Below, piece by piece: positions 8,686 to 24,354 of a stretch of 64,000 nt of DNA (position 1 is the first letter of the stretch; each line of letters begins with the position of its first letter). The notes below the pieces were generated by a model. It did not search any database and was not told the origin of the DNA. It saw only the letters and a list, made by a program, of their open reading frames with translations. Location: the NCBI GenBank assembly GCA_013359225.1, contig JABWCG010000001.1, forward strand, positions 70,410-134,409. The letters are read 5' to 3'. This DNA is from Candidatus Buchananbacteria bacterium. GTDB lineage: Bacteria; Patescibacteriota; Patescibacteriia; Buchananbacterales; UBA6539. The position numbers and the translations under genes are program-made.

Positions 8686-8716
8686 AAAACGCCCCTGAAA
8701 TATCAGAGGCGTTTTT
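8686..8716. terminator. Bidirectional rho-independent terminator between the suf operon and the tRNA.
   Basis: Stem aaaaacgcccctga/tcagaggcgttttt (one mismatch), loop aata, T-run on both sides. Confidence 0.6.
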
Positions 8717-8792
8717 GGTCGGGCTGGCGGGACTTGAACCCGCGACCTCAGCGTCCCGAACGCTGCGCGCTAGCCAACTGCGCTACAGCCCG
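8716..8792 (-). tRNA. tRNA-Pro, anticodon CGG.
   Basis: Reverse complement folds as a cloverleaf: acceptor CGGGCTG/CAGCCCG, D-arm GCGC/GCGC, anticodon stem CAGCG/CGCTG with loop TTCGGGA, T-arm GCGGG-TTCAAGT-CCCGC, discriminator A, encoded CCA. Confidence 0.85.
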
Positions 8793-14069: not shown

Positions 14070-14939
14070 ATGGATAAAAAAGAAAAAGGATTTGAAGATA
14101 AATTTTTGGGCTTGGATGAAGCGGCGGATGATGACCGTCCGGTAGTAGCTAAATCTTTAAAAGCCAAAAAAACAAAACAGCCGCGCCAGATAAAAAAAGG
14201 CAAGCGGAATAAAAAGAATATTTGGAAGCGTTTAGGTGTTGTGGTTATGATTTTTTTCGTTGGAGTTTTGGTAGTTTTATGTATCGCTGGGATTGTACGA
14301 GTGCCTGTTTTAAGCAACATTTTATATCAAACACCCTCACCGTCACGGGTGGTGTCCGACGTTGTTTTGGGAGAGATAGACCGGACAAAAAATGGGGTTA
14401 ACTTTGATAAGGAATCAAGCGTACTGTCAGTTAAAATCTCTGAAGAGTATCTTTCTTATTTTTTGCAGCAGCTTCAGCTTAAATCAAATGATCCGTCGTT
14501 TGACCAAAATATTCAGGTGGTTGTTGAAAGTGGAGAAATTGAATTTTACGCGACAATGCTGCGGCCGGTAAAAACCGAAATAACGTTGCGAGTTAAACCA
14601 GACATTGGTTCCGGATTGTCTTTGACAAAATTTTTTAAAGTTACTAAGTTTAAGGTTGGCAATCTGCGACTGCCGTCGTTTGTGGCAGAGCTATATTTGA
14701 AAGAATTGATTGAATCTAAATTAAAGACTTTGACTTCAGCTTTTGGCGGCGCCAGTAACTTGATTACCGCCAAGCCGCCTGTTAGCGTCAAAAATCTCGC
14801 ACTTGAGAATGGTTATGCAGAAATTGATATTTATTTTGATATGGCAAAAATTCAGGAAAATATGAAGCAGCTGCCTCAGCTATTGGAAGAGATTCAAAAG
14901 CGATATCCGGCGGCGGCATCTAAAACTATTCAACCATGA
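14070..14939 (+). CDS. Single-pass membrane protein: basic N-terminus, TM segment, extracytoplasmic domain.
   Basis: K/R-rich N-terminal 50 aa, then a TM helix. No known motif. Confidence 0.45.
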   Translation: MDKKEKGFEDKFLGLDEAADDDRPVVAKSLKAKKTKQPRQIKKGKRNKKNIWKRLGVVVMIFFVGVLVVLCIAGIVRVPVLSNILYQTPSPSRVVSDVVLGEIDRTKNGVNFDKESSVLSVKISEEYLSYFLQQLQLKSNDPSFDQNIQVVVESGEIEFYATMLRPVKTEITLRVKPDIGSGLSLTKFFKVTKFKVGNLRLPSFVAELYLKELIESKLKTLTSAFGGASNLITAKPPVSVKNLALENGYAEIDIYFDMAKIQENMKQLPQLLEEIQKRYPAAASKTIQP

Positions 14940-15700
14940 TTATCATTAACCGTTTAATTCCCTGGCTTTCTGCTTTTTTAATTTTGCTTATCTTGGAGCA
15001 GATTTTAGCGACGCCAAAGCAACTGCATTGGTTGATCGGCATGGCTTTAGCGTTGGTGATTTTGGGCGTCTGGCAGCTAATGGACCGGCAGATATTCAAT
15101 AAGCGCTTCGTTGAGTTAGTAACGACGCCAGTGCTGTTTTTGGGAAGTGGTATTTTGTTTTTGAGTTTTTTGCAAGGTAACTTACTGAAACAGGCGGTTA
15201 TCTTAATTCTGGCGTTACTGATTGGTATCTACCTTGAAGTGATATTGTTTCGTTTTCAAATCAGACCCCGGTATCAGCCTCATTCACTAGACAACATATC
15301 GACGCATTTAGGGTTGTTGGCATTATTTTTCTTAAGCAGCGGTTTGTTTAGTCTGATTGTTTTTTTGGGACTACCGTTGTGGTCAGCTGCTTTAATTTTT
15401 GGCGGCGGCTGTTTGTTGCTTACTAGTCAGCTGCTTTGGGTCAGTGAAACAACATTTGTTCGCAGTTGGCAATTTGTTTTTGTGATTTCTTTAGTGGCAA
15501 TGGAAGTATTTTTGGTTGTCGGCTTCATGCCCACTAGTATCAACGTCAATGCGTTAATCGTTTCCTTGGGGTACTATCTTATGGATGGTTTGGCGCGTAA
15601 TTGGCTTTTAGGGATTAAGGAAAAGAAAGTGATTAGACGCTATTTGCTTATTGCGGTATTTTCATTAATAATAATCTTAGCTACTGCTAAGTGGTTTTAA
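14936..15700 (+). CDS. Polytopic membrane protein (6-7 TM).
   Basis: ATGA overlap with the upstream gene. Hydrophobic throughout. Confidence 0.45.
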   Translation: MIIINRLIPWLSAFLILLILEQILATPKQLHWLIGMALALVILGVWQLMDRQIFNKRFVELVTTPVLFLGSGILFLSFLQGNLLKQAVILILALLIGIYLEVILFRFQIRPRYQPHSLDNISTHLGLLALFFLSSGLFSLIVFLGLPLWSAALIFGGGCLLLTSQLLWVSETTFVRSWQFVFVISLVAMEVFLVVGFMPTSINVNALIVSLGYYLMDGLARNWLLGIKEKKVIRRYLLIAVFSLIIILATAKWF

Positions 15701-15701
15701 C

Positions 15702-16868
15702 ATGATTAAAAAGATTTTAGACAAAAAGAATAGTCAGATTTCTCAGGTGGTTATTTTATCCATGATTTTTGGCTTTGGTTCAGGGGTAGTCGGCCAGATT
15801 GTGGCGGATGTTTATATTGATCCGTGGCGGCAGGATTATATCACGCAAGGTATTTATGACAATACGACTGATGTACCCGAGATTCCGCAACTGCGTCGCG
15901 TGGAACGATTCTTGGGTATTGAGCAGGATTTTGAAGTCAATAAATCAATTACAAAAGTTAATTCCGCATTAGTCGGAATTTATAAAAAGAAAGCGGTTTC
16001 TGGACAGGCAGCCCTAAATCAAGTGTATACGGCCGCTGACTTGGTGGCTAATGGCGTGGCATTGACCAGTGATGGTTGGCTTGCAACCCATCAAAAAGCC
16101 TTGGCGGACTTTGATTTAAAGAATTTAGTAGTCATATTCAACCATCAGTTGTTTGAGGTGAAACAAATGGTGCAGGACGAAACCACCGGTGTCGCATTTA
16201 TTAAAATTTCCGCTGACAACTTGGGCATTGTTACTCTCGGAGATTCGCGAGAGTCCACTCTTGGTCAGCTGGGGGTTGTGACTAATGTTTTGGGCGAAGT
16301 GACGGTGGTTAACGTTAAAGACAACGATTATCGTCAGTTAAGCACTCCTCAAGAGTATGTCTTTTCGTCCGAGCGCTATGATTACTCGCTGTTGATTTCC
16401 AAGGGGCTTGATAGCAATTATTTAGGTAGCCCGGTGGTAAATTTGGGCGGAGAAGTAATTGGCATTGTTTATGAAATACGAGACGATGGCCAGGCTTTGG
16501 CAGTGCCAATCAACCAGTTTAAATCAATTATTCTCGATGTGCTGCGCAGTAATACCGTTAACCGGCCGCTCTTGGGCGTGATGTATGTTGATTTAAGCAA
16601 GGTGGTTGGGTTGAATGTTGCCAATGGCAAAGATTTGAGTCGCGGAGCTTTGATTTACCAATCGCCGAACCGCAATACGCCGGCATTTTCAGCCGGATTT
16701 AAGGAAGGCGATATTATTTTGAGTATTGATGGTCAGTTGGTTGACGAGAACAGTAATTTGACGGAATTGATTCAGCAATATCAAGTTGGTGATGAAGTCA
16801 GCATTGAATATCTAAGAAGTGGCGTTACAGCCACAGTTGATGTAGTCTTATCAGCGGCAGTGCAGTAG
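15702..16868 (+). CDS. Trypsin-like (HtrA/DegP-family) protein with C-terminal PDZ domain. The Ser-protease motif is degenerate.
   Basis: HtrA-like core …YLGSPVVNLGGEVIGIV… where the canonical GNSGGPLVN is shortened to GSPVVN. PDZ-like C-terminus (GALIYQSP…GDIILSIDGQLV). N-terminal TM anchor. Confidence 0.6.
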   Translation: MIKKILDKKNSQISQVVILSMIFGFGSGVVGQIVADVYIDPWRQDYITQGIYDNTTDVPEIPQLRRVERFLGIEQDFEVNKSITKVNSALVGIYKKKAVSGQAALNQVYTAADLVANGVALTSDGWLATHQKALADFDLKNLVVIFNHQLFEVKQMVQDETTGVAFIKISADNLGIVTLGDSRESTLGQLGVVTNVLGEVTVVNVKDNDYRQLSTPQEYVFSSERYDYSLLISKGLDSNYLGSPVVNLGGEVIGIVYEIRDDGQALAVPINQFKSIILDVLRSNTVNRPLLGVMYVDLSKVVGLNVANGKDLSRGALIYQSPNRNTPAFSAGFKEGDIILSIDGQLVDENSNLTELIQQYQVGDEVSIEYLRSGVTATVDVVLSAAVQ

Positions 16869-18357: not shown

Positions 18358-18657
18358 TTATTCAGGCTTGATAACCCTGGGTTCTTTTTTATCGATAAGA
18401 TCAGGGTGAGGGGAGTAGAGCTTATTTTTGATTTTCCACTTATCCACATACTGACCTATTCCTTTATTAGCTAGTTTATTTTTTGTTGTAGTTCTTCCCT
18501 GTGACCATTCTAATAGACTGTTGAAGTTAATTTTATATCGTCCCTGAACAACAATGTATTTTAAATCTTGGTGCTGGATTGCGCGTCTGATGGTCTTTTG
18601 ATCAACGCCAAAAAGACGGGACGCTTCAGAAACGGTTACTCGGATTACATTTGTCAT
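18358..18657 (-). CDS. Small helix-turn-helix DNA-binding protein (excisionase/HTH_17-like).
   Basis: N-terminal …VSEASRLFGVDQKTIRRAIQ… matches excisionase-family HTH. 99 aa. Lies upstream of, and co-oriented with, the purA-like gene. Confidence 0.55.
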   Translation of the reverse strand: MTNVIRVTVSEASRLFGVDQKTIRRAIQHQDLKYIVVQGRYKINFNSLLEWSQGRTTTKNKLANKGIGQYVDKWKIKNKLYSPHPDLIDKKEPRVIKPE

Positions 18658-18749
18658 AAAATATAATTTTTGTCCAGACTAGTCTGGACAATTTTAGATA
18701 TTTTCAATGAAGTAGCTTTAAATATATTCTACAATTTATGGTTTTTTAC

Positions 18750-18778
18750 TGCAACATATTTCTTTTTTAAACGTCTTA
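18750..18778 (+). promoter_or_regulatory. ECF-sigma-type promoter motif, distal copy.
   Basis: TGCAAC-N16-CGTCTTA. Identical architecture to the proximal copy. Confidence 0.45.
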
Positions 18779-18898
18779 TTTAGTAACACTTAGTACTCTT
18801 TTATTATTCTTTAATTTTTTAAAAATTAGCTTAAAAAGGGCTAATTTTGACTTTTTTAAAGAAAATCGTTATAGTATAGTCTGTTGCGGTTACCTAAC

Positions 18899-18927
18899 TG
18901 TAACGTTTTTTAAGCTCCTACGTCTTA
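18899..18927 (+). promoter_or_regulatory. ECF-sigma-type promoter motif, proximal copy, immediately upstream of the sigma-factor ATG.
   Basis: TGTAAC-N16-CGTCTTA. Resembles sigW/sigX-type AAC-N16/17-CGTC promoters. The predicted TSS is about 5-8 nt downstream, at or next to the ATG at 18932. Confidence 0.5.
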
Positions 18928-18931
18928 ATTA

Positions 18932-19495
18932 ATGAAATCCTCAAATTTCAAGGAAAAAGCCCTATTAATACGGATAAAAAAGAAGGACCCGCAGGCTTTT
19001 TCTGAAGTGTATGATTTGTACGTTACACCTATATATAGGTTTATTTATTTTAAGGTCGCAACCAAACAGGATGCTGAAGATTTGACCTCGGAAGTTTTTC
19101 TGAAGATCTGGCAATATGTAACCGAAACGGAAGAAGAAATCCAAAATCTGCGCGCACTATTGTACCGCACTGCCAGAAATTTGGTTATTGATTTTTATCG
19201 CCGCAATGCCAAACGGGACTTAACGCAGGATTTGGAAGTGCTGGAAACAATAAAAGATGAACGACAGCAAAGCCTCCTGACGCAGATTGATACGGCGTTT
19301 GACATGAAAAATATTGAAAGCATTTTGCGGCAGCTTAAAGATGAATATCGTGAAGTAATCATTTTACGTTTCATCGAAGAATTATCAATTACTGAAATTG
19401 CAAAAGTTTTAGAAAAATCAAAGGGTTCAGTTAGAGTGCTATTGCACCGGGCGCTAAAAGTCGCCAGAGAACTCCTCAACGAAGATGGAAAATAA
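18932..19495 (+). CDS. ECF-type sigma-70 family RNA polymerase sigma factor.
   Basis: Region 2 (…YRFIYFKVATKQDAEDLTSEVFLKIW…) and region 4 HTH (…ELSITEIAKVLEKSKGSVRVLLHRALK…). Confidence 0.85.
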   Translation: MKSSNFKEKALLIRIKKKDPQAFSEVYDLYVTPIYRFIYFKVATKQDAEDLTSEVFLKIWQYVTETEEEIQNLRALLYRTARNLVIDFYRRNAKRDLTQDLEVLETIKDERQQSLLTQIDTAFDMKNIESILRQLKDEYREVIILRFIEELSITEIAKVLEKSKGSVRVLLHRALKVARELLNEDGK

Positions 19496-20372
19496 CGTTA
19501 TTAACGAAATTAAAAATTTAAAACAACAAGTTGTTCCCCGAGCCGAATGGGTGAGTTCGACGCGGGATTTTTTGTTGCAGCAAATTGCAACTGATGCCGC
19601 TTCAGAAAAAGTTTCAGTTGGTATGACGGGATATTGGTCAATTTTTAACCAGACGTTTCGTCAGCGAATGTTTGAGCCGGCGCTGGTAATGATGTTGTTG
19701 TTAGTTTCTTTTGTTGGCAGCAGCCTGACAATCAATGCCGCTTTTTACAGTCTGCCGGGAGATAGTCTCTATAAAGTAAAATTAGCTTTAGAGCAAACGC
19801 ACGTGGCATTGGTGACTGACGAAGAAAAGAAAGTGGAGCTTAAGATGGAATTTGCTCAGAAGCGCGCAGTGGAATTTGATAAGATTGTTGCTCAGTCAGA
19901 TGTGTCCCCGGAAGCCAAGAAGAAAAAGATTGAAGAGGTGGTCAAGGAATTCAAAAATAATGTTGCTGAAGTAAATACTCATTTATCAAAAATTAACCAA
20001 GAAGCCCCAGAAGCGGATCGCAGTTTGAATGTTAAGATGGCATTAACGATTAGTGAAAAGACCGAAGAACTGGCGAAGAATATTGATAAGACCACTAGTA
20101 ACTTAGGTGAAGTTGATAAGAAAGAATTAGAAGGAATTTTAGCTGAGGCTGTACAGTCAGTTCAGGATGTTGGTTTGGCGGCTCAGCAACTAATTAATGA
20201 TGCGCAAATCCCAGCAGGAGATCAGGAAACCGGAGAAGTGCAGGGTGCAACTAACGATGCTGCTGAAACGCCTGAGACAGGGGATGCTAATAATACCGTT
20301 CAAGATGAAACAAAAACCGACGGCGCTACCGTCGAGGAGGTGGTTGAGCAAGTTGAGCCGGCAGGTAATTAA
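19485..20372 (+). CDS. Putative membrane-anchored anti-sigma factor.
   Basis: Overlaps the sigma-gene stop. Cytoplasmic N-terminal about 50 aa, one TM helix (ALVMMLLLVSFVGSSLTI), then an acidic coiled-coil-like extracytoplasmic domain. Confidence 0.5.
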   Translation: MENNVINEIKNLKQQVVPRAEWVSSTRDFLLQQIATDAASEKVSVGMTGYWSIFNQTFRQRMFEPALVMMLLLVSFVGSSLTINAAFYSLPGDSLYKVKLALEQTHVALVTDEEKKVELKMEFAQKRAVEFDKIVAQSDVSPEAKKKKIEEVVKEFKNNVAEVNTHLSKINQEAPEADRSLNVKMALTISEKTEELAKNIDKTTSNLGEVDKKELEGILAEAVQSVQDVGLAAQQLINDAQIPAGDQETGEVQGATNDAAETPETGDANNTVQDETKTDGATVEEVVEQVEPAGN

Positions 20373-20631
20373 TTTAGAAAACCCGGCCATTAATGGCTCG
20401 AGTTTTAAATAAAGTTCTTAATAATTTTTGGAGCAATTAGGGTCTAATCTCCCCTTGGACTGTTAAAGTAAAGGTCGGTTCGAGCTATTCGAAACTTTAA
20501 TGGACTAAGGATTCTGGAGTTAGATGGCCCCTTAAATAAGGGTCCGTATGATGTTATTAGGTTCGCCTAGGCGTAATATCATCTAAGCCTAACCGAGAAT
20601 ATTTAAGAGCTTAAGAAAGGAATAATTTAAC

Positions 20632-23600
20632 ATGATTAAAAGACTATTGACCTACGCTGTTGTTATTACAACCGTTGTCTGGTCAGTTGGTTTACTAGCC
20701 ACTCCGATTGCAGTTGGTGCTGCTGTCAGCGGTGACTTGATCAAGCTCCAGTGTGCTGCTGGTGCTGACGTCAACGATCCTTGCCGTGCAGTCTACTACT
20801 TGGGTGCTGATGGTAAGCGATATGTCTTCCCAAATGAGAAGACCTACAAAACCTGGTACTCAGACTTCAGCGGCGTTCAGACCGTTTCACAAACCGAAAT
20901 GAGTTCATACCCAATCGGTGGAAACGTTACGTACCGCCCAGGTGTCAAGCTAGTAAAAATTACTACTGATCCAAAAGTATATGCAGTCGGTTCCAATGGC
21001 ACCCTTCACTGGGTAACCACTGGCGAAATCGCCGAGGCTCTTTACGGAGCTACTTGGGCCACGATGGTCGAAGACGTTCCTGATGCCTTCTTCGTCAACT
21101 ACACTGTTGGTAGCGACATTAATGCTGCTGCTGACTACAACAAGCAGACTGAGATGGACAATGCTGCGACAATCAATGATGACAAGAACCTCGGTGGCGG
21201 CGCTTCAACTGGAACCAGCTTGAACGTTGCTTTGGCTTCTGACACCCCAGCTACCGGTTTAATTGTTGGTAATTCAATCAACAACAAATTCACCAAAGTG
21301 AATTTGACCGCTTCAGCTGACGGTGACATGGTCATTGACCAGCTCGTCGTCCGACGCGGTGGCACCATTGCTGCTGACAGTGCGTTCTCATCAATTGCTA
21401 TTATTGATGCTGCCACTGGCGCCAGAATTGGTAACACCAAAACCTTGAATTCACAGCATATGGCTGTCTTCAATGAAGACATCACCGTAGCCGCTGGTAC
21501 CACCAAGTCAATCTACTTGGCCGGTAACATGGCTGCTAGCCTAGCTACTAACGCTGGTGAAATCCCAACCCTCGACTTGTACTCAGTTACTTTGTCAGGT
21601 GGTGGCGCCGTTATCGGCAGCTTGCCAATCGTTGGTAATTACCAGACTTTGAACGGTACTATCACTATTGGTGCTTTGTCAGTTTCTGACGGCTCCAACA
21701 ACCCGGATGCTTCAACCCAGAAGATTGGTACAACTAACTACCTAGTTTCAGGTTTCAAGTTGGTTGCCAACTCAGTTGAAGACTTCCACGTCACTTCAAT
21801 CACCTTTGACCAGGGTGGTACTGCTGCAGACGATGACGTTAGCAACCTCGATCTTATCATCGACGACACTATCGTTAAGACTGTCGCTGCTCCATCAAAC
21901 GGCAAAGTGATGTTTGACTTGTCAGCCAGCCCAGTGTTGGTTGAAAAGGGTAAGACTGTTCAAGTCGACCTACAACTTGACATCGCCGACGGTTCAAGCC
22001 GAACTATTCGCTTTGACATTGAAGACGAGTCAGACATTGTAGCTCGCGGACAGCTTTACGGTGCAGAAGTTAAGGTATCTGACGGTGGCGCAGGTGCTGC
22101 ATCAGATGCTACCCCATTCTGGACTGCTCCAGTGACCACTGTTGATACTGGTTCTCTAAGAATTGGTGCTGCTACTTTGAGCGCTGCCAATATCCCAGAG
22201 GATTCAGATCAGGTTGTTTTGGGTAAGTTCGAATTCGAAGCTAAGGGTGAACCAGTTGAAATTTCTTCATTGCCGATTGGCTTTAGAATTGCTACTTCAA
22301 CAGGAAGTTTGGCAACTGACAGTGGAGTTGATTTGACCAACATCACTGTTTATGATGCGAACGGCGCGATTGTCGCTGGTCCATCTGACCCGACTTACAA
22401 GATTCACACCTCGGATTCCACCGCATTATTGCAAGTAACTTCAACCGACACCTTCACTGTTCCAACCGGTCTACACATTTACACCATTAAAGGTGACGTT
22501 GACTCAGACTTTGGCACCAACGACACAATCGTTGCCCATATTAAGCCAGGTCAGGTTACTGCTAAGGGTGAAACAACCGGTTTGACTGTGACCCCAACTC
22601 CAACCACCAGTGAATTGACCTCAGCTACCATGACTGTTCAGTCAGCCCAGTTAGCTGTTTCCGTTTCTTCATTGCCGGTTGCTCAGAGTGTGGTTGCTGG
22701 TACTAAAGGCTTCACCTTTGCCAACGTGGTCTTAGGTGCTGAATCTTCAGGAGAAGACATTAAAGTTACTTCTCTTAAGGTTCAGGTTGATTGTCTAGCT
22801 ACCTGCAGTCCTTCCCAGACTTCAAACTGGAGTCTCTACGATGGTGCGACCAAGTTGTCAGTCACCAACGATCCAGACTCACAGGTTGGAACCAAGACGA
22901 CTGCTGCTGATGATGCTACTTCAACCTTCAACCTCACCACTCCGTTGGTGATTGCGAAGGGTACTTCAAAGACTTTGACCGTCAAGGCTGATCTCAGCAC
23001 TGACGCCACTTCCGGCACAATCACTGTCGGTATTGAAGACACCACCAGCTCAACCATTACTGCTAAAGGTAACAACAGCGGTTTGGATGCTGCCTTAACT
23101 GTCAGCGTTTCAGACGGTCAGACAATGACCTTGAACTCAGGCGGTGCTTTGACCATCACCCGAGACACTACGTCTCCAAAAGATGGCCTATTGCCTGCTA
23201 ACTCCGAAGGTTTGACCTTCGCTGTGTTCAGCGCTGTTGCCCAGTACGAAGATGTAAATATTGAGAAGCTATACCTCACTGCAGTTCAGGCTAACAGCGG
23301 CGGTCTAGACCAGATCAATAAGGTTTACATCTACAACGGCAGCACCAAGTTGGCTGAAGTTACTCCAACTTCAACTGACGGTACTGACCGAACTGTCTTG
23401 ATCGATGTCACCAACAACCCAATCGTTGTTGCCAAGGACACTAGCGTTAAGTTGACCATCAAGGTTGACACCGCTAACTCCAACTACGAAGTCGGTTCAA
23501 AGGGTGCTTCTGGTCAGGGTCTATGGTTGAAGATTGCTTCCGCTGCTGATGTCACCGCTAAGGGTGCTCAGTCCGGAACAACTTTGGCCACAGCTGCGAA

Positions 23601-24354
23601 GACCATTAACAATGCTTCGTCAACTGCTCAGTACTTGTTCCGATCCGTCCCGACTCTTGCCACCAACGACTTATTGTCAAGTGGTAAGGTCTCAGGCGGT
23701 ACCTTAACTGCTGGTACTGAAGCTTCAAAGAGTTTGTACGCCTTCTCGGTGACTGCAGACTCAAAGGGTGACATTGCTTTGCATCGTGTCAACTTCAACA
23801 TTTCAACCAACGTCGCTACCATCACTAACATGATGATTACCGACGGTACTGAAAATGTTGCATACCAGTTGTCAGCCGGTTCAAGCTTTATCGGCACCAA
23901 CGATGCTGGCACTGATTCCTGGACTGGAGAAGCTCCGTTCTTCTTCGTCAACAATCAGACCGCCCCATCAGCGTACACCGGAACGAACGTTGTTCCTTAC
24001 GTCATTCCTGCCGGTACCACCAAGACCTTCACCCTTAAAGGTGATGTCCAGTGTGCCGCAGTTGGCGGAAGCGACTGTTCAACTTCAAGTGGAAGCGGAT
24101 CACTTAGTATCCAGATGCTCGGCGATACCTCATTGCTAGGTACCGTCCCAACTGGTGCTACTGCTCTTGCTGCCTCTGATGCTAAATTGGGTGACGCTGC
24201 ATTCGTCTGGTCAGATCTATGGCGAACCAGCATCCAGGGTATTTCATCAACAACCGCTTCAACCACCGAACAGTGGTCAAACGGTGCCTACGTTGCTTTG
24301 AGCAATGGCGGTAAGATGATTGCCACCTCTTCAGCTGTTACCTTCAGCCGCTAA
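20632..24354 (+). CDS. Large secreted repetitive surface protein (1240 aa). S-layer/cell-surface glycoprotein candidate.
   Basis: N-terminal signal/TM. About 30% Thr+Ser plus abundant Gly/Ala/Val. Recurring about 100-150-aa units that each end in …(V/I)TAKG(x)2SG…. About 240-nt leader. Strong terminator downstream. Confidence 0.7.
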   Translation: MIKRLLTYAVVITTVVWSVGLLATPIAVGAAVSGDLIKLQCAAGADVNDPCRAVYYLGADGKRYVFPNEKTYKTWYSDFSGVQTVSQTEMSSYPIGGNVTYRPGVKLVKITTDPKVYAVGSNGTLHWVTTGEIAEALYGATWATMVEDVPDAFFVNYTVGSDINAAADYNKQTEMDNAATINDDKNLGGGASTGTSLNVALASDTPATGLIVGNSINNKFTKVNLTASADGDMVIDQLVVRRGGTIAADSAFSSIAIIDAATGARIGNTKTLNSQHMAVFNEDITVAAGTTKSIYLAGNMAASLATNAGEIPTLDLYSVTLSGGGAVIGSLPIVGNYQTLNGTITIGALSVSDGSNNPDASTQKIGTTNYLVSGFKLVANSVEDFHVTSITFDQGGTAADDDVSNLDLIIDDTIVKTVAAPSNGKVMFDLSASPVLVEKGKTVQVDLQLDIADGSSRTIRFDIEDESDIVARGQLYGAEVKVSDGGAGAASDATPFWTAPVTTVDTGSLRIGAATLSAANIPEDSDQVVLGKFEFEAKGEPVEISSLPIGFRIATSTGSLATDSGVDLTNITVYDANGAIVAGPSDPTYKIHTSDSTALLQVTSTDTFTVPTGLHIYTIKGDVDSDFGTNDTIVAHIKPGQVTAKGETTGLTVTPTPTTSELTSATMTVQSAQLAVSVSSLPVAQSVVAGTKGFTFANVVLGAESSGEDIKVTSLKVQVDCLATCSPSQTSNWSLYDGATKLSVTNDPDSQVGTKTTAADDATSTFNLTTPLVIAKGTSKTLTVKADLSTDATSGTITVGIEDTTSSTITAKGNNSGLDAALTVSVSDGQTMTLNSGGALTITRDTTSPKDGLLPANSEGLTFAVFSAVAQYEDVNIEKLYLTAVQANSGGLDQINKVYIYNGSTKLAEVTPTSTDGTDRTVLIDVTNNPIVVAKDTSVKLTIKVDTANSNYEVGSKGASGQGLWLKIASAADVTAKGAQSGTTLATAAKTINNASSTAQYLFRSVPTLATNDLLSSGKVSGGTLTAGTEASKSLYAFSVTADSKGDIALHRVNFNISTNVATITNMMITDGTENVAYQLSAGSSFIGTNDAGTDSWTGEAPFFFVNNQTAPSAYTGTNVVPYVIPAGTTKTFTLKGDVQCAAVGGSDCSTSSGSGSLSIQMLGDTSLLGTVPTGATALAASDAKLGDAAFVWSDLWRTSIQGISSTTASTTEQWSNGAYVALSNGGKMIATSSAVTFSR

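What the first reader, a model, noticed from the sequence alone, without database searches (positions are those of the whole stretch)
18750..20372. ECF sigma factor with two tandem TGyAAC-N16-CGTCTTA promoter copies and a membrane anti-sigma candidate, directly upstream of the surface-glycoprotein cassette
Two sites 149 bp apart share identical architecture: TGCAAC-N16-CGTCTTA (18750-18778) and TGTAAC-N16-CGTCTTA (18899-18927). This is the sigW/sigX/sigM-type AAC-N16-CGTC ECF promoter pattern. The proximal copy places the transcription start at the sigma ATG (18932), implying a leaderless mRNA. Duplicated autoregulatory promoters suggest strong positive feedback. The overlapping downstream gene encodes a single-TM protein with a coiled-coil-like extracytoplasmic domain, a candidate anti-sigma factor. 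The operon ends about 250 bp before the giant surface-protein gene, so this sigma factor may control envelope glycoprotein expression.
Basis: seen in the sequence. Interest (0 to 1): 0.62.

Follow-up and report, generated by a model that had tools for sequence, protein, structure and literature searches.

The report
Self-activating ECF sigma module in Patescibacteria
This is a stress-type (ECF) sigma factor gene with a self-recognised promoter placed right against its start codon and a likely membrane anti-sigma partner; the two-gene unit itself is ordinary, but it is conserved across many uncultured Patescibacteria and always sits beside their giant surface-protein gene and a previously undescribed structured RNA.

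Summary
Both TGYAAC-N16-CGTCTTA sites exist (2 found, 0.00 expected) and are the only strong sites in 64 kb.

**Supported**
- The gene at 18932-19495 is an ECF sigma.
- The proximal promoter is conserved in 64 of 80 related Patescibacteria loci. In 46 of those 64, CGTN lies exactly 7 nt before the ATG, which is leaderless-mRNA geometry.
- The overlapping downstream gene (DUF5667, one TM helix) follows the sigma in 74 of 80 loci. It also follows an ECF sigma in 3 of 3 independently sampled distant members. It is a good anti-sigma candidate but matches no known anti-sigma domain.

- The distal copy is intact only in the window and its closest relative, so it is not a conserved design feature.
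- An invariant sigma70-type promoter (18847-18875) lies between the two copies.
- A divergent HTH_17 gene with a palindromic operator is part of the module.
- The surface-protein gene is syntenic in 73 of 80 loci but has no ECF promoter. It is preceded by a ~220-nt covariation-supported leader RNA with no Rfam match.

**Verdict:** a known kind of regulatory unit, with an uncharacterised anti-sigma family and an unusually conserved context. Moderately interesting.

The parts
18358..18657 (-). Divergent HTH_17 (excisionase/MerR-like) DNA-binding protein gene, 99 aa
   Evidence: Pfam HTH_17 at 1.2e-07. A homolog lies on the opposite strand upstream of the sigma gene in 75 of 80 loci.
18670..18691 (.). 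Perfect palindrome TTGTCCAGACTAGTCTGGACAA, candidate operator of the HTH_17 protein; it starts 13 nt upstream of that gene's ATG
   Evidence: Seen. Related inverted repeats (TTGTCTAsAC..GTsTAGACAA) track the HTH gene start across the loci. It is the only good match in the 64 kb.
18750..18778 (+). Distal ECF-type promoter-like element: TGCAAC-N16-CGTCTTA
   Evidence: Exact pattern hit, 26.7 bits. Intact homolog only in L084 (21.7 bits); degraded in L083, L002 and L081/82; absent elsewhere.
18822..18848 (+). 11-bp hairpin (AAAAATTAGC..GCTAATTTT) with a T-run, between the distal element and the sigma70-type promoter; a possible terminator of a short distal transcript
   Evidence: Fold of 18783-18931. 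A similar hairpin occurs in L084 only. Function untested.
18847..18875 (+). sigma70-type promoter: TTGACT-N17-TATAGT
   Evidence: 10 of 12 consensus matches. Invariant in all 8 aligned close relatives. A similar promoter occurs at -80 to -90 in 27 of 80 loci, against 0 of 74 control regions.
18899..18927 (+). Proximal ECF promoter: -35 TGTAAC (18899-18904), T-rich spacer, -10 CGTC (18921-18924); it places +1 at or next to the A of the ATG at 18932
   Evidence: 32.8 bits. GTAAC-N16-CGTN occurs in 64 of 80 loci, with exactly 7 nt to the ATG in 46 of those 64. Logo.
18932..19495 (+). ECF (group IV) sigma factor gene, 187 aa
   Evidence: Sigma70_r2, Sigma70_r4_2 and Sigma70_ECF. TIGR02937 scores 87 bits against a cutoff of 42.9. 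The best subfamily is TIGR02952 (BldN family) at 128 bits, below its 206 cutoff. Best PDB matches are 6dxo_A (sigma BldN) and 5wuq_A (SigW).
19485..20372 (+). DUF5667 membrane protein gene, 295 aa, candidate anti-sigma. Two to three short cytoplasmic helices, TM helix 63-87, extracytoplasmic helical bundle 96-241, disordered acidic tail.
   Evidence: PF18915. 11-nt overlap with the sigma gene. Synteny in 74 of 80 loci and 3 of 3 independent samples. AF2 model. Conserved N-terminal motif.
20378..20406 (+). Hairpin directly after the DUF5667 stop codon; likely a weak terminator or 5' boundary element
   Evidence: A hairpin of different sequence occupies the same place in nearly all of the 19 close-clade loci examined.
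20407..20622 (+). Conserved structured leader RNA (~220 nt) ending in a strong Shine-Dalgarno sequence, AAGAAAGGAA (20613-20622)
   Evidence: Fold z-score -4.1. 46 pairs, 27 with compensatory changes. 94.3 % of cells paired against 32-54 % in slid controls, and 0 of 500 shuffles reach the observed values. Covariance model hits in 28 sources, always ending at or within a few tens of nt of the surface-gene start. No Rfam match.
20632..24354 (+). Giant secreted surface protein gene, 1240 aa, with a conserved ~200-aa N-terminal domain
   Evidence: tblastn of residues 1-200 hits downstream of DUF5667 in 73 of 80 loci, plus L081, L085, L086 and L088. No Pfam or NCBIfam match. Followed by PMT_2, TPR, GT4 and sugar-nucleotide enzyme genes.

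Best explanation
Bases 18358-24354 hold a conserved four-gene Patescibacteria module: HTH_17 gene (divergent), ECF sigma, DUF5667 membrane protein, then a structured leader and a giant surface-protein gene.

Proposed mechanism:
1. The sigma gene has two kinds of promoter. A sigma70-type promoter (18847-18875) gives basal, leadered transcripts.
2. An ECF-type promoter (TGTAAC-N16-CGTC, 18899-18927) is recognised by the sigma's own holoenzyme. It starts transcription at, or within a nucleotide or two of, the ATG, so the induced mRNA is leaderless.
3. The overlapping DUF5667 gene is co-transcribed and translationally coupled.
4. The DUF5667 protein is the cognate anti-sigma. Its short conserved cytoplasmic N-terminal helices hold the sigma at the membrane until an envelope signal, sensed by the extracytoplasmic helical bundle, releases it. 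That closes a positive feedback loop.
5. The distal copy (18750-18778) is a lineage-specific extra site, probably a duplicate of the promoter plus start region. It may add a second sigma-dependent start in this lineage, but it is not part of the conserved design.
6. The surface-protein gene is functionally linked by conserved adjacency. It has no cognate ECF promoter, so any control by the sigma would be through read-through of the weak hairpin at 20378-20406, or indirect.

Shown: the sequence features, their conservation, the spacing and the synteny. Inferred: which sigma uses the promoter, the transcription start, the sigma/anti-sigma binding, and the signal.
For: - **Motif statistics:**
- **ECF identity:**
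- **Promoter conservation:** 64 of 80 loci carry GTAAC-N16-CGTN within 120 nt upstream of the sigma gene. The unforced T before GTAAC is invariant, a T-tract follows -35, and positions -80 to -36 carry no information. Conserved motifs upstream of ECF operons are the accepted way to infer the cognate promoter, and AAC / CGT / T-tract are the published ECF hallmarks (PMC5758882).
- **Leaderless geometry:** the 7-nt spacing holds in 46 of 64 loci. There is a precedent in M. tuberculosis sigE, which has a housekeeping P1 and a SigE-dependent P2 that yields a leaderless mRNA (PMC10027907).
- **sigma70-type promoter:**
- **Anti-sigma candidate:** DUF5667 lies directly downstream in 74 of 80 loci, and the 6 exceptions are mostly contigs that end shortly after the sigma gene. 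3 of 3 divergent DUF5667 genes, sampled through their own profile, follow an ECF sigma. In L025 a 26.9-bit site sits between the sigma gene and the DUF5667 gene. The topology is N-in with a single TM helix. Six of the 13 most conserved positions across 65 diverse members lie in the first 34 residues.
- **No other target nearby:** no other strong site in the 64 kb, or in about 590 kb of related loci apart from the sigma-proximal ones.
- **Surface-gene synteny:**
Against: - There are no transcript data, so the start site and sigma dependence are inferred from geometry only.
- In 18 of 64 loci the spacing differs, so leaderless initiation is not obligatory.
- In many distant loci the -10 reads CGTATAAT, which could also serve the housekeeping sigma.
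[quoted passage not shown] No member of 65 hits a known anti-sigma Pfam family, and the profile finds no anti-sigma chain, including RsbN, in PDB at E <= 10. The whole-model fold search gives only generic helical bundles (best E = 0.018).
- The cytoplasmic segment is short (about 60 aa) and modelled at only moderate confidence (pLDDT 59-77).
- Only about 10 % of the genome was visible, so the regulon is unknown.
Confidence: 0.65

Rival explanations
1. The DUF5667 protein is not an anti-sigma. It is an envelope protein co-expressed with the sigma, for example an assembly or anchoring factor for the adjacent giant surface protein. The sigma is controlled in some other way: by transcription alone, by the HTH_17 protein, or by an unlinked factor.
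For: No similarity to any anti-sigma domain by sequence or fold. DUF5667 is just as tightly syntenic with the surface-protein gene (73 of 80 loci) as with the sigma. Its best-conserved stretch includes an extracytoplasmic juxtamembrane motif, NAAFYSLPGDxLYxxK.
Against: The gene immediately downstream of, and overlapping, an autoregulated ECF sigma gene is the anti-sigma in most studied systems (established knowledge). [quoted passage not shown] The cytoplasmic N-terminal helices are strongly conserved across 20-50 % identical members, which an exclusively extracytoplasmic role does not explain.
Confidence: 0.2
2. The sigma operon's main purpose is to drive the surface-protein gene. Transcription from the sigma promoters reads through the weak hairpin at 20378-20406 into the structured leader, so sigma, DUF5667 and the surface protein form one stress-inducible transcription unit.
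For: The gene order sigma, DUF5667, surface gene is on one strand in 73 of 80 loci. The post-operon hairpin mostly lacks a good U-tract. The consensus scan found no sigma70-type promoter on the + strand in the window's gap. The sigma's nearest characterised relatives (BldN family) control surface-layer proteins in Streptomyces (PMC6101532).
Against: A hairpin at the same place in nearly every close relative looks like a terminator or transcript boundary. A TAnAAT-like box lies 5-8 nt upstream of the leader's first conserved helix in most relatives (read by eye), which suggests the surface gene has its own start. A major structural protein is unlikely to depend only on a stress sigma. There is no ECF motif in the gaps.
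Confidence: 0.2
3. The two TGYAAC-N16-CGTC sites are recognised by a different ECF sigma encoded elsewhere in the genome (a cascade), or the distal site is a non-functional relic, so there is no duplicated autoregulatory feedback.
For: Only 64 kb of a ~600-kb contig was visible, so paralogous sigmas cannot be excluded. The distal site is decaying in sister lineages. CGTC-type promoters are recognised by several ECF sigmas in B. subtilis (PMC5758882).
Against: No sigma paralog in the window. The motif co-varies in presence with this sigma gene across 64 of 80 genomes and is found almost nowhere else in the sampled DNA. Autoregulatory promoters tend to be specific for the cognate sigma (PMC5758882).
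Confidence: 0.15

Closest known systems
Bacillus subtilis sigW-rsiW (and sigX, sigM, sigV) autoregulated ECF operons
   Same: Sigma2/sigma4-only sigma of about 187 aa (SigW is the second-best PDB match, 5.6e-19). Promoter with AAC in -35, CGT(C/A) in -10, a 16-nt spacer and a -35-proximal T-tract (PMC5758882; logo). A single-pass membrane protein gene lies directly downstream.
   Different: From general knowledge, RsiW carries a canonical class I anti-sigma domain. No DUF5667 protein has one (0 of 65). The B. subtilis genes are not described as leaderless. There is no conserved HTH_17 partner or adjacent surface-protein gene.
Streptomyces sigma BldN - RsbN
   Same: BldN is the best sequence match to the sigma, both in PDB (6dxo_A, 1.3e-20) and in NCBIfam (TIGR02952). 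RsbN is a single-TM membrane anti-sigma with a short cytoplasmic domain of three helices and no similarity to other anti-sigmas. BldN directs expression of cell-surface layer proteins, the chaplins and rodlins (PMC6101532). The DUF5667 model likewise has two to three cytoplasmic helices before the TM helix.
   Different: The score is below the BldN-family cutoff (128 against 206 bits). The DUF5667 profile does not detect RsbN. The cytoplasmic part is about 60 aa against 117 aa. The surface gene here has no cognate ECF promoter.
Mycobacterium tuberculosis sigE promoters P1 and P2
   Same: A housekeeping promoter plus a promoter transcribed by the sigma's own holoenzyme that yields a leaderless mRNA (PMC10027907). 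This matches the sigma70-type promoter plus ATG-abutting ECF promoter seen here.
   Different: sigE P2 also needs MprA, and a third internal promoter exists. In the window the arrangement is inferred from sequence only, and it is conserved across a whole radiation rather than shown in one species.
Long structured 5' leaders of S-layer and other highly expressed surface-protein mRNAs (general knowledge, not checked here)
   Same: A ~220-nt structured 5' region and an unusually strong Shine-Dalgarno sequence precede a very large secreted surface protein.
   Different: No sequence or Rfam relationship. The loop and junction sequences are highly conserved, which suggests a specific ligand or protein partner rather than simple stabilisation.

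Membership tests
ECF (group IV) sigma-70 family | Sigma2 and sigma4 domains present, sigma3 and sigma1.1 absent, about 170-220 aa | tested here: met
   PF04542 and PF08281/PF04545 hit; no sigma3 family listed; 187 aa. TIGR02937 scores 87.1 bits against a cutoff of 42.9.
ECF (group IV) sigma-70 family | Conserved bipartite promoter upstream of its own operon, with AAC in -35 and a group-specific -10 (CGT) | tested here: met
   GTAAC-N16-CGTN in 64 of 80 loci; logo; criteria from PMC5758882. Actual use by this sigma was not tested.
BldN subfamily (NCBIfam TIGR02952) | Score at or above the curated equivalog cutoff (206.45 bits) | tested here: not met
   128.1 bits. It is the best-scoring subfamily, but below its threshold.
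Class I anti-sigma factors (ASD; zf-HC2, RskA-type) | Recognisable anti-sigma domain at the N-terminus | tested here: not met
   0 of 65 DUF5667 proteins hit a known anti-sigma Pfam family at E <= 0.01. The profile search against PDB finds no anti-sigma chain at E <= 10.
RsbN-type (non-canonical) membrane anti-sigma | Sequence similarity to RsbN | tested here: not met
   No 6dxo RsbN chain among the 44 PDB matches at E <= 10.
Membrane anti-sigma factors in general (functional class) | Gene adjacent to and co-transcribed with the sigma gene; N-in single-pass topology with a cytoplasmic sigma-binding segment | tested here: met
   Overlap or short gap with the sigma gene in 74 of 80 loci and 3 of 3 independent samples. 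TM helix at a median position of residue 66, with basic residues before it. Conserved N-terminal helices.
Membrane anti-sigma factors in general (functional class) | Physical binding to, and inhibition of, the cognate sigma | not testable with these tools
   Only single-chain prediction from window or database sequences was available. Needs two-hybrid or pull-down assays, or a multimer prediction.
Pfam DUF5667 (PF18915) | Score above the gathering threshold (27 bits) | tested here: met
   40.1 bits for the window protein; 65 of 65 aligned homologs hit.
Leaderless mRNA | Transcription start at, or within a few nt of, the start codon | not testable with these tools
   Indirect evidence only: the -10 CGTC sits at -11 to -8 relative to the ATG in 46 of 64 loci. 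Absence of an SD sequence is uninformative in this genome.
Any Rfam 15 family (for the 20407-20622 leader) | Covariance-model match | tested here: not met
   Nothing at gathering score. The best E-value is 3.4 with permissive filters.

The most novel reading that the evidence does not exclude
DUF5667 proteins are a large, previously unrecognised class of membrane anti-sigma factors (about 8,700 clusters at 50 % identity). In Patescibacteria they couple the state of the cell-surface layer to a leaderless, self-amplifying ECF sigma. The sigma operon, a new structured leader RNA and the giant surface-protein gene together form one conserved envelope-homeostasis circuit, which would make this the principal envelope stress response of these reduced genomes.
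Probability: 0.2. Interest if true: 0.7.

Novelty: new variant of a known kind. Interest (0 to 1): 0.5.

Why it matters
Patescibacteria (CPR) have tiny genomes and very few regulators, and almost nothing is known about how they control gene expression or their envelope.

- A sigma/anti-sigma pair that is conserved in sequence, promoter and gene order across many candidate phyla, and always sits next to the major surface-protein gene, is a strong candidate for their core envelope-sensing circuit.
- The parts are small and defined: a 187-aa sigma, a 29-bp promoter and a ~60-aa cytoplasmic anti-sigma segment. They can be tested in E. coli or B. subtilis without cultivating the organism.
- Such a test would assign a function to DUF5667, a family of thousands of proteins.
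- The leader RNA is a new, well-supported structured RNA family that deserves its own study.
- The basic logic (an autoregulated ECF sigma with a downstream membrane partner) is textbook, and that limits the surprise.

Tried and rejected
1. My first synteny count for the surface protein (1 of 80 loci) was an artefact, because ORFs that run off a locus end had been excluded. tblastn corrected it to 73 of 80. The apparent conserved minus-strand small ORFs downstream (clusters 3 and 6; no Pfam match) are probably spurious antisense ORFs inside that gene.
2. Absence of a Shine-Dalgarno sequence was dropped as evidence for leaderlessness, because about 51 of 58 gene starts in the window lack one.
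3. Searches for a known anti-sigma relationship all came back negative: single-sequence and profile searches against PDB, Pfam on 65 members, NCBIfam, and Foldseek against PDB. The afdb50 library was unavailable.
It was redone with database proteins. No complex prediction was possible.
5. Literature: no paper mentions DUF5667. No paper links leaderless mRNAs or ECF sigmas to Patescibacteria in a relevant way. The ECF reclassification paper does not mention CPR groups in its main text, and its supplements are not held. So I could not determine whether this sigma already has an ECF group number.
6. A relaxed search for ECF motifs (15-18 nt spacers) in the gaps before the surface gene gave 2 of 73, which is chance level.
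7. A first search for the HTH palindrome used the wrong central spacing and found nothing; the corrected search is.
8. The terminator-like hairpin overlapping the proximal -35 (18882-18905) is not conserved in relatives by eye, so I did not build on it.
9. A metagenome-wide motif scan for regulon members was considered and not run. At 14 specified bases, chance matches would swamp true sites.
Full report
**1. Observation**

The full pattern occurs twice in 64 kb, against 0.00 expected in shuffles. The looser pattern TGYAAC-N16-CGTC with one mismatch is not enriched (8 found against 4.5 expected), so the signal rests on these two sites alone.

I built a 31-column weight matrix from 63 distinct homologous promoters. 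It scores the two sites at 32.8 and 26.7 bits. The next best position in the window scores 9.2 bits, equal to the mean of the shuffle maxima (9.2; largest 17.0).

The sigma ORF starts at ATG 18932, 7 nt after CGTC, and an in-frame stop lies immediately upstream. The next ORF (19485-20372) overlaps the sigma stop by 11 nt. The 1240-aa ORF starts 259 nt after that ORF ends.

**2. Identity of the genes and the organism**

- *Sigma (18932-19495).* The product has Sigma70_r2 and Sigma70_r4_2 and no region 3. It passes the NCBIfam ECF superfamily model. Its best subfamily is the BldN family, TIGR02952, at 128 bits, below that model's 206-bit cutoff. The closest solved structures are sigma BldN (6dxo) and B. 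subtilis SigW (5wuq).
- *Organism.* An identical protein is on record from a Candidatus Buchananbacteria MAG, on a contig of 601,517 bp. There are more than 1,000 homologs at E <= 1e-10, from sources named Buchananbacteria, Falkowbacteria, Parcubacteria and Patescibacteria.
- *Downstream product.* It carries only DUF5667 (PF18915).
- *Upstream gene.* The divergent gene at 18358-18657 encodes a 99-aa HTH_17 (excisionase/MerR-like) protein.

**3. The proximal promoter is conserved and locked to the start codon**

I fetched 80 loci from distinct species genomes with a sigma alignment.

- 64 have GTAAC-N16-CGTN within 120 nt upstream of the sigma gene. About 0.2 would be expected by chance for eight fixed bases.
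- In 46 of those 64, exactly 7 nt separate CGTN from the ATG.
- Aligned on the ATG (its A taken as +1), TGTAAC occupies -33 to -28 and CGT(C/A) occupies -11 to -8.
- The T before GTAAC was not part of the search pattern, yet it is invariant. A T-tract follows the -35 element.
- Positions -80 to -36 carry essentially no information.

So the motif and its register are under selection and are not left over from shared ancestry. AAC in -35, CGT in -10, a -35-proximal T-tract, and the practice of inferring the cognate promoter from conserved elements upstream of ECF operons are all described for B. subtilis sigma W, X, M and V (PMC5758882).

A -10 element at -11 to -8 with respect to the ATG is the geometry expected if transcription starts at or next to the A. 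That would make the induced mRNA leaderless. M. tuberculosis sigE offers a precedent, with a housekeeping P1 and a SigE-dependent P2 that gives a leaderless mRNA (PMC10027907).

Two cautions apply:
- Only about 7 of 58 gene starts in the window have a Shine-Dalgarno core. The missing SD before the sigma gene therefore carries no weight.
- 18 of 64 loci have other spacings. Many distant loci read CGTATAAT, which the housekeeping sigma might also use.

**4.

An alignment with the closest relatives (79-89 % identical sigma) shows four conserved blocks:

1. A perfect palindrome, TTGTCyAGACTAGTCTrGACAA (18670-18691), next to the HTH_17 start codon.
2. The distal ECF-like element.
3. An invariant sigma70-type promoter, TTGACT-N17-TATAGT (18847-18875), with 10 of 12 consensus matches.
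4. The proximal ECF promoter.

A sigma70-type promoter at -80 to -90 occurs in 27 of 80 loci, against 0 of 74 control regions. The sigma gene therefore most likely has a basal promoter plus a self-dependent one, as for sigE.

The palindrome family (TTGTCTAsAC..GTsTAGACAA) follows the HTH gene start in loci across the radiation, whatever the distance to the sigma gene. It is unique in the window. Its arms change in a symmetric way between loci. That fits an operator for a dimeric HTH protein that regulates its own gene. Whether it also affects the sigma gene is unknown.

**5. The distal copy**

It is a genuine high-scoring site (26.7 bits), but it is lineage-specific.

| Locus | Sigma identity to the window | Distal element score |
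|---|---|---|
| window | – | 26.7 bits |
| L084 | 89 % | 21.7 bits |
| L083 | 86 % | 9.0 bits |
| L002 | 76 % | 5.4 bits |
| L081 / L082 | 86 % | about 0 bits |
| L085, L003 | 79 %, 76 % | absent |

In the degraded copies the -10 half (AACGTCTT) survives but the -35 half is lost. Among the 80 species genomes no locus has a strong second site upstream of the sigma gene.

Sequence similarity to the proximal copy continues past the -10 element (CGTCTTATTTAGTAAC against CGTCTTAATTAATGAAA). This suggests a duplication of the promoter plus start region in which the ATG was later lost.

In the window and in L084 an 11-bp hairpin with a T-run lies 45-75 nt downstream (18822-18848). So the distal site might yield a short terminated transcript or a 149-nt leadered mRNA; I cannot tell which. 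'Duplicated promoters for strong feedback' is at best a peculiarity of this lineage.

**6. The anti-sigma candidate**

*Synteny.*
- A DUF5667 homolog lies directly downstream of the sigma gene, usually overlapping it by 4-25 nt, in 74 of 80 loci. The six exceptions are mostly contigs that end shortly after the sigma gene.
- A profile search of 1.84 billion representative proteins finds 8,754 clusters at E <= 1e-3, and the top 150 all align from residue 1.
- Three divergent members chosen from that list each sit directly after an ECF sigma gene. One of these sigma genes shows the same TGTAAT-N16-CGTC-N7-ATG arrangement.
- In L025 a 26.9-bit promoter site lies between the sigma gene and the DUF5667 gene.

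*Architecture.* All members share one layout:
- a conserved N-terminal motif of about 35 aa (…LKxLK…PRxEW…RDxLLxQI);
- a variable linker;
- one TM helix at about residue 65, preceded by basic residues;
- a conserved juxtamembrane motif (NAAFYSLPGDxLYxxK);
- a helical domain.

Six of the 13 most conserved positions across 65 members (20-50 % identical) lie in the first 34 residues.

*Structure model.* The AlphaFold2 model (mean pLDDT 77) gives cytoplasmic helices 2-15, 20-38 and 47-61, a TM helix at 63-87, a confident five-helix extracytoplasmic bundle (96-241, pLDDT above 90) and a disordered acidic tail.

*Negative results.* No known anti-sigma domain is detectable in any of 65 members. No anti-sigma chain in PDB, including RsbN, is found by the profile. 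The fold search returns only generic helical bundles (best E = 0.018).

RsbN was in the same position before it was characterised. It is a single-pass membrane protein with three cytoplasmic helices and no similarity to known anti-sigmas, and it proved to be the anti-sigma of BldN (PMC6101532). I therefore rate 'DUF5667 is the cognate anti-sigma' as likely (about 0.65) but unproven, and not as a member of any described anti-sigma class.

An HtrA-like Trypsin_2-PDZ protease with an N-terminal hydrophobic (membrane-anchor-like) segment lies about 2 kb upstream (15702-16868). It is a neighbour in 15 close loci. It is a possible site-1 protease, but that is only a lead.

**7. Link to the surface protein**

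The first 200 residues of the 1240-aa product are encoded on the same strand downstream of DUF5667 in 73 of 80 loci, and also in L081, L085, L086 and L088. The seven loci without a hit are mostly contigs with little sequence downstream of the sigma gene. The module is therefore: HTH_17 (divergent), sigma, DUF5667, surface protein.

However, no ECF site precedes the surface gene in the window. A relaxed motif occurs in only 2 of 73 gaps. The gap is always at least 200 nt.

In the close clade the gap has three parts:
- a hairpin right after the DUF5667 stop codon, which differs in sequence between loci while the stem persists;
- an A/T-rich TAnAAT-like box;
- a ~220-nt element ending in AAGAAAGGAAA-N7-8-ATG.

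A functional link between the sigma module and the surface protein is therefore well supported. Direct transcription of the surface gene from a cognate promoter is not. Read-through or indirect coupling, such as the anti-sigma sensing the surface layer, remains open.

The genes after the surface gene encode two PMT-family mannosyltransferase-like proteins, a TPR protein, a GT4 transferase and sugar-nucleotide enzymes. The 'glycoprotein cassette' label is reasonable.

**8. The leader RNA (side finding)**

- The window copy folds with a z-score of -4.1.
- In a 15-sequence alignment, RNAalifold predicts 46 pairs in seven helices, and 27 pairs show compensatory double changes.
- With that structure, 94.3 % of cells are paired, against 32-54 % when the partners are slid by 1-3 columns. 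27 pairs show double changes, against 5-13 in the slid versions. 0 of 500 shuffles reach the observed values.
- By eye, an additional outer helix (AGTTCWTT… pairing with …AATGAACT) also co-varies, and it ends right at the SD.
- A covariance model finds the element in 28 of 89 sources, always on the + strand and ending at or within a few tens of nt of the surface-gene start.
- Rfam has no match even at E <= 10.
- Several unpaired stretches are nearly invariant (for example GTAAAGGTCG and GCCTAAC), as is most of the 3' hairpin (GTTAGGTTCGCCTAGGCGTAAC). This hints at a specific partner, though simple mRNA stabilisation or translation enhancement is equally possible.

**9. Comparison, novelty and verdict**

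In how it works, this is an autoregulated ECF sigma with a downstream membrane partner. It resembles sigW-rsiW in promoter type, bldN-rsbN in sigma sequence and in having a non-canonical anti-sigma, and sigE P1/P2 in the two-promoter, leaderless arrangement.

By membership, it is an ECF sigma (met), not a BldN-family equivalog (not met), and its partner belongs to none of the described anti-sigma classes (not met).

I could not check whether the ECF Hub classification already lists this group, and no paper in the library mentions DUF5667. I file it as a new variant of a known kind. The core logic is ordinary. Three things are not:
- the phylum-scale conservation of a leaderless promoter register;
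- an uncharacterised, very large candidate anti-sigma family;
- the fixed association with the main surface-protein gene and a new structured RNA.

Interest is 0.5.

Noticed in passing
window 20407-20622 (also L001-L015, L018, L021-L024, L026, L030, L032, L078, L081, L082, L085): A ~220-nt structured leader RNA precedes the giant surface-protein gene. It has 46 predicted pairs, 27 with compensatory changes; 94 % of cells pair against 32-54 % in slid controls; a covariance model hits 28 sources. It has no Rfam match and ends in an unusually strong Shine-Dalgarno sequence. It appears to be a new RNA family.
   Followed up: yes
window 18358-18657 (-) and 18670-18691: A small HTH_17 gene lies divergent from the sigma gene in 75 of 80 loci. 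A perfect palindrome (TTGTCCAGACTAGTCTGGACAA) starts 13 nt upstream of its ATG. Related inverted repeats with symmetric arm changes follow the HTH gene start across the radiation, and the site is unique in the 64 kb. It is a likely autoregulatory operator.
   Followed up: partly
whole window (58 long ORFs): Only about 7 of 58 gene starts have a Shine-Dalgarno-like core, so this genome mostly initiates translation without SD. The surface-protein gene is a marked exception, with AAGAAAGGAA.
   Followed up: partly
window 14936-16868: A DUF5656 membrane protein gene and an HtrA-like Trypsin_2-PDZ protease gene (with an N-terminal hydrophobic segment) lie about 2 kb upstream of the sigma gene. They are neighbours in 15 close loci. 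The protease is a candidate site-1 protease for the anti-sigma, untested.
   Followed up: partly
window 18822-18848: An 11-bp A/T-flanked hairpin with a T-run lies between the distal ECF-like element and the sigma70-type promoter. It is also present in L084, the only relative with an intact distal element. It could terminate a short sigma-dependent transcript of about 65 nt.
   Followed up: partly
window 18882-18905: A terminator-like hairpin (10 pairs, 3 of them G-T) followed by TTTTTT overlaps the -35 of the proximal promoter, at the predicted 5' end of the sigma70-promoter transcript. It is not obviously conserved in relatives.
   Followed up: no
window 20632-21230 (first ~200 aa of the 1240-aa product): The N-terminal domain of the giant surface protein (signal/TM segment, then SGDLIKLQC…YYLGADGKRYVFPNEKTYKTWY…) is conserved at 31-91 % identity in 77 loci, while the rest diverges. 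It has no Pfam or NCBIfam match. It could be a cell-envelope anchoring domain.
   Followed up: partly
L025 4950-4980: In this locus a 26.9-bit ECF promoter site lies between the sigma gene and the DUF5667 gene, and none was found upstream of the sigma gene. This is an alternative wiring of the same parts.
   Followed up: no
record titles of many loci (e.g. L001, L013, L014, L021): Many records that carry this Patescibacteria-type module are titled 'uncultured Gammaproteobacteria bacterium', and one each 'archaeon' and 'Candidatus Binatia'. The organism names on these MAG records look unreliable.
   Followed up: no
window 8716-8792 (-): tRNA-Pro (CGG) is the only RNA gene detected in the window by ARAGORN and by Rfam at gathering score.
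   Followed up: no
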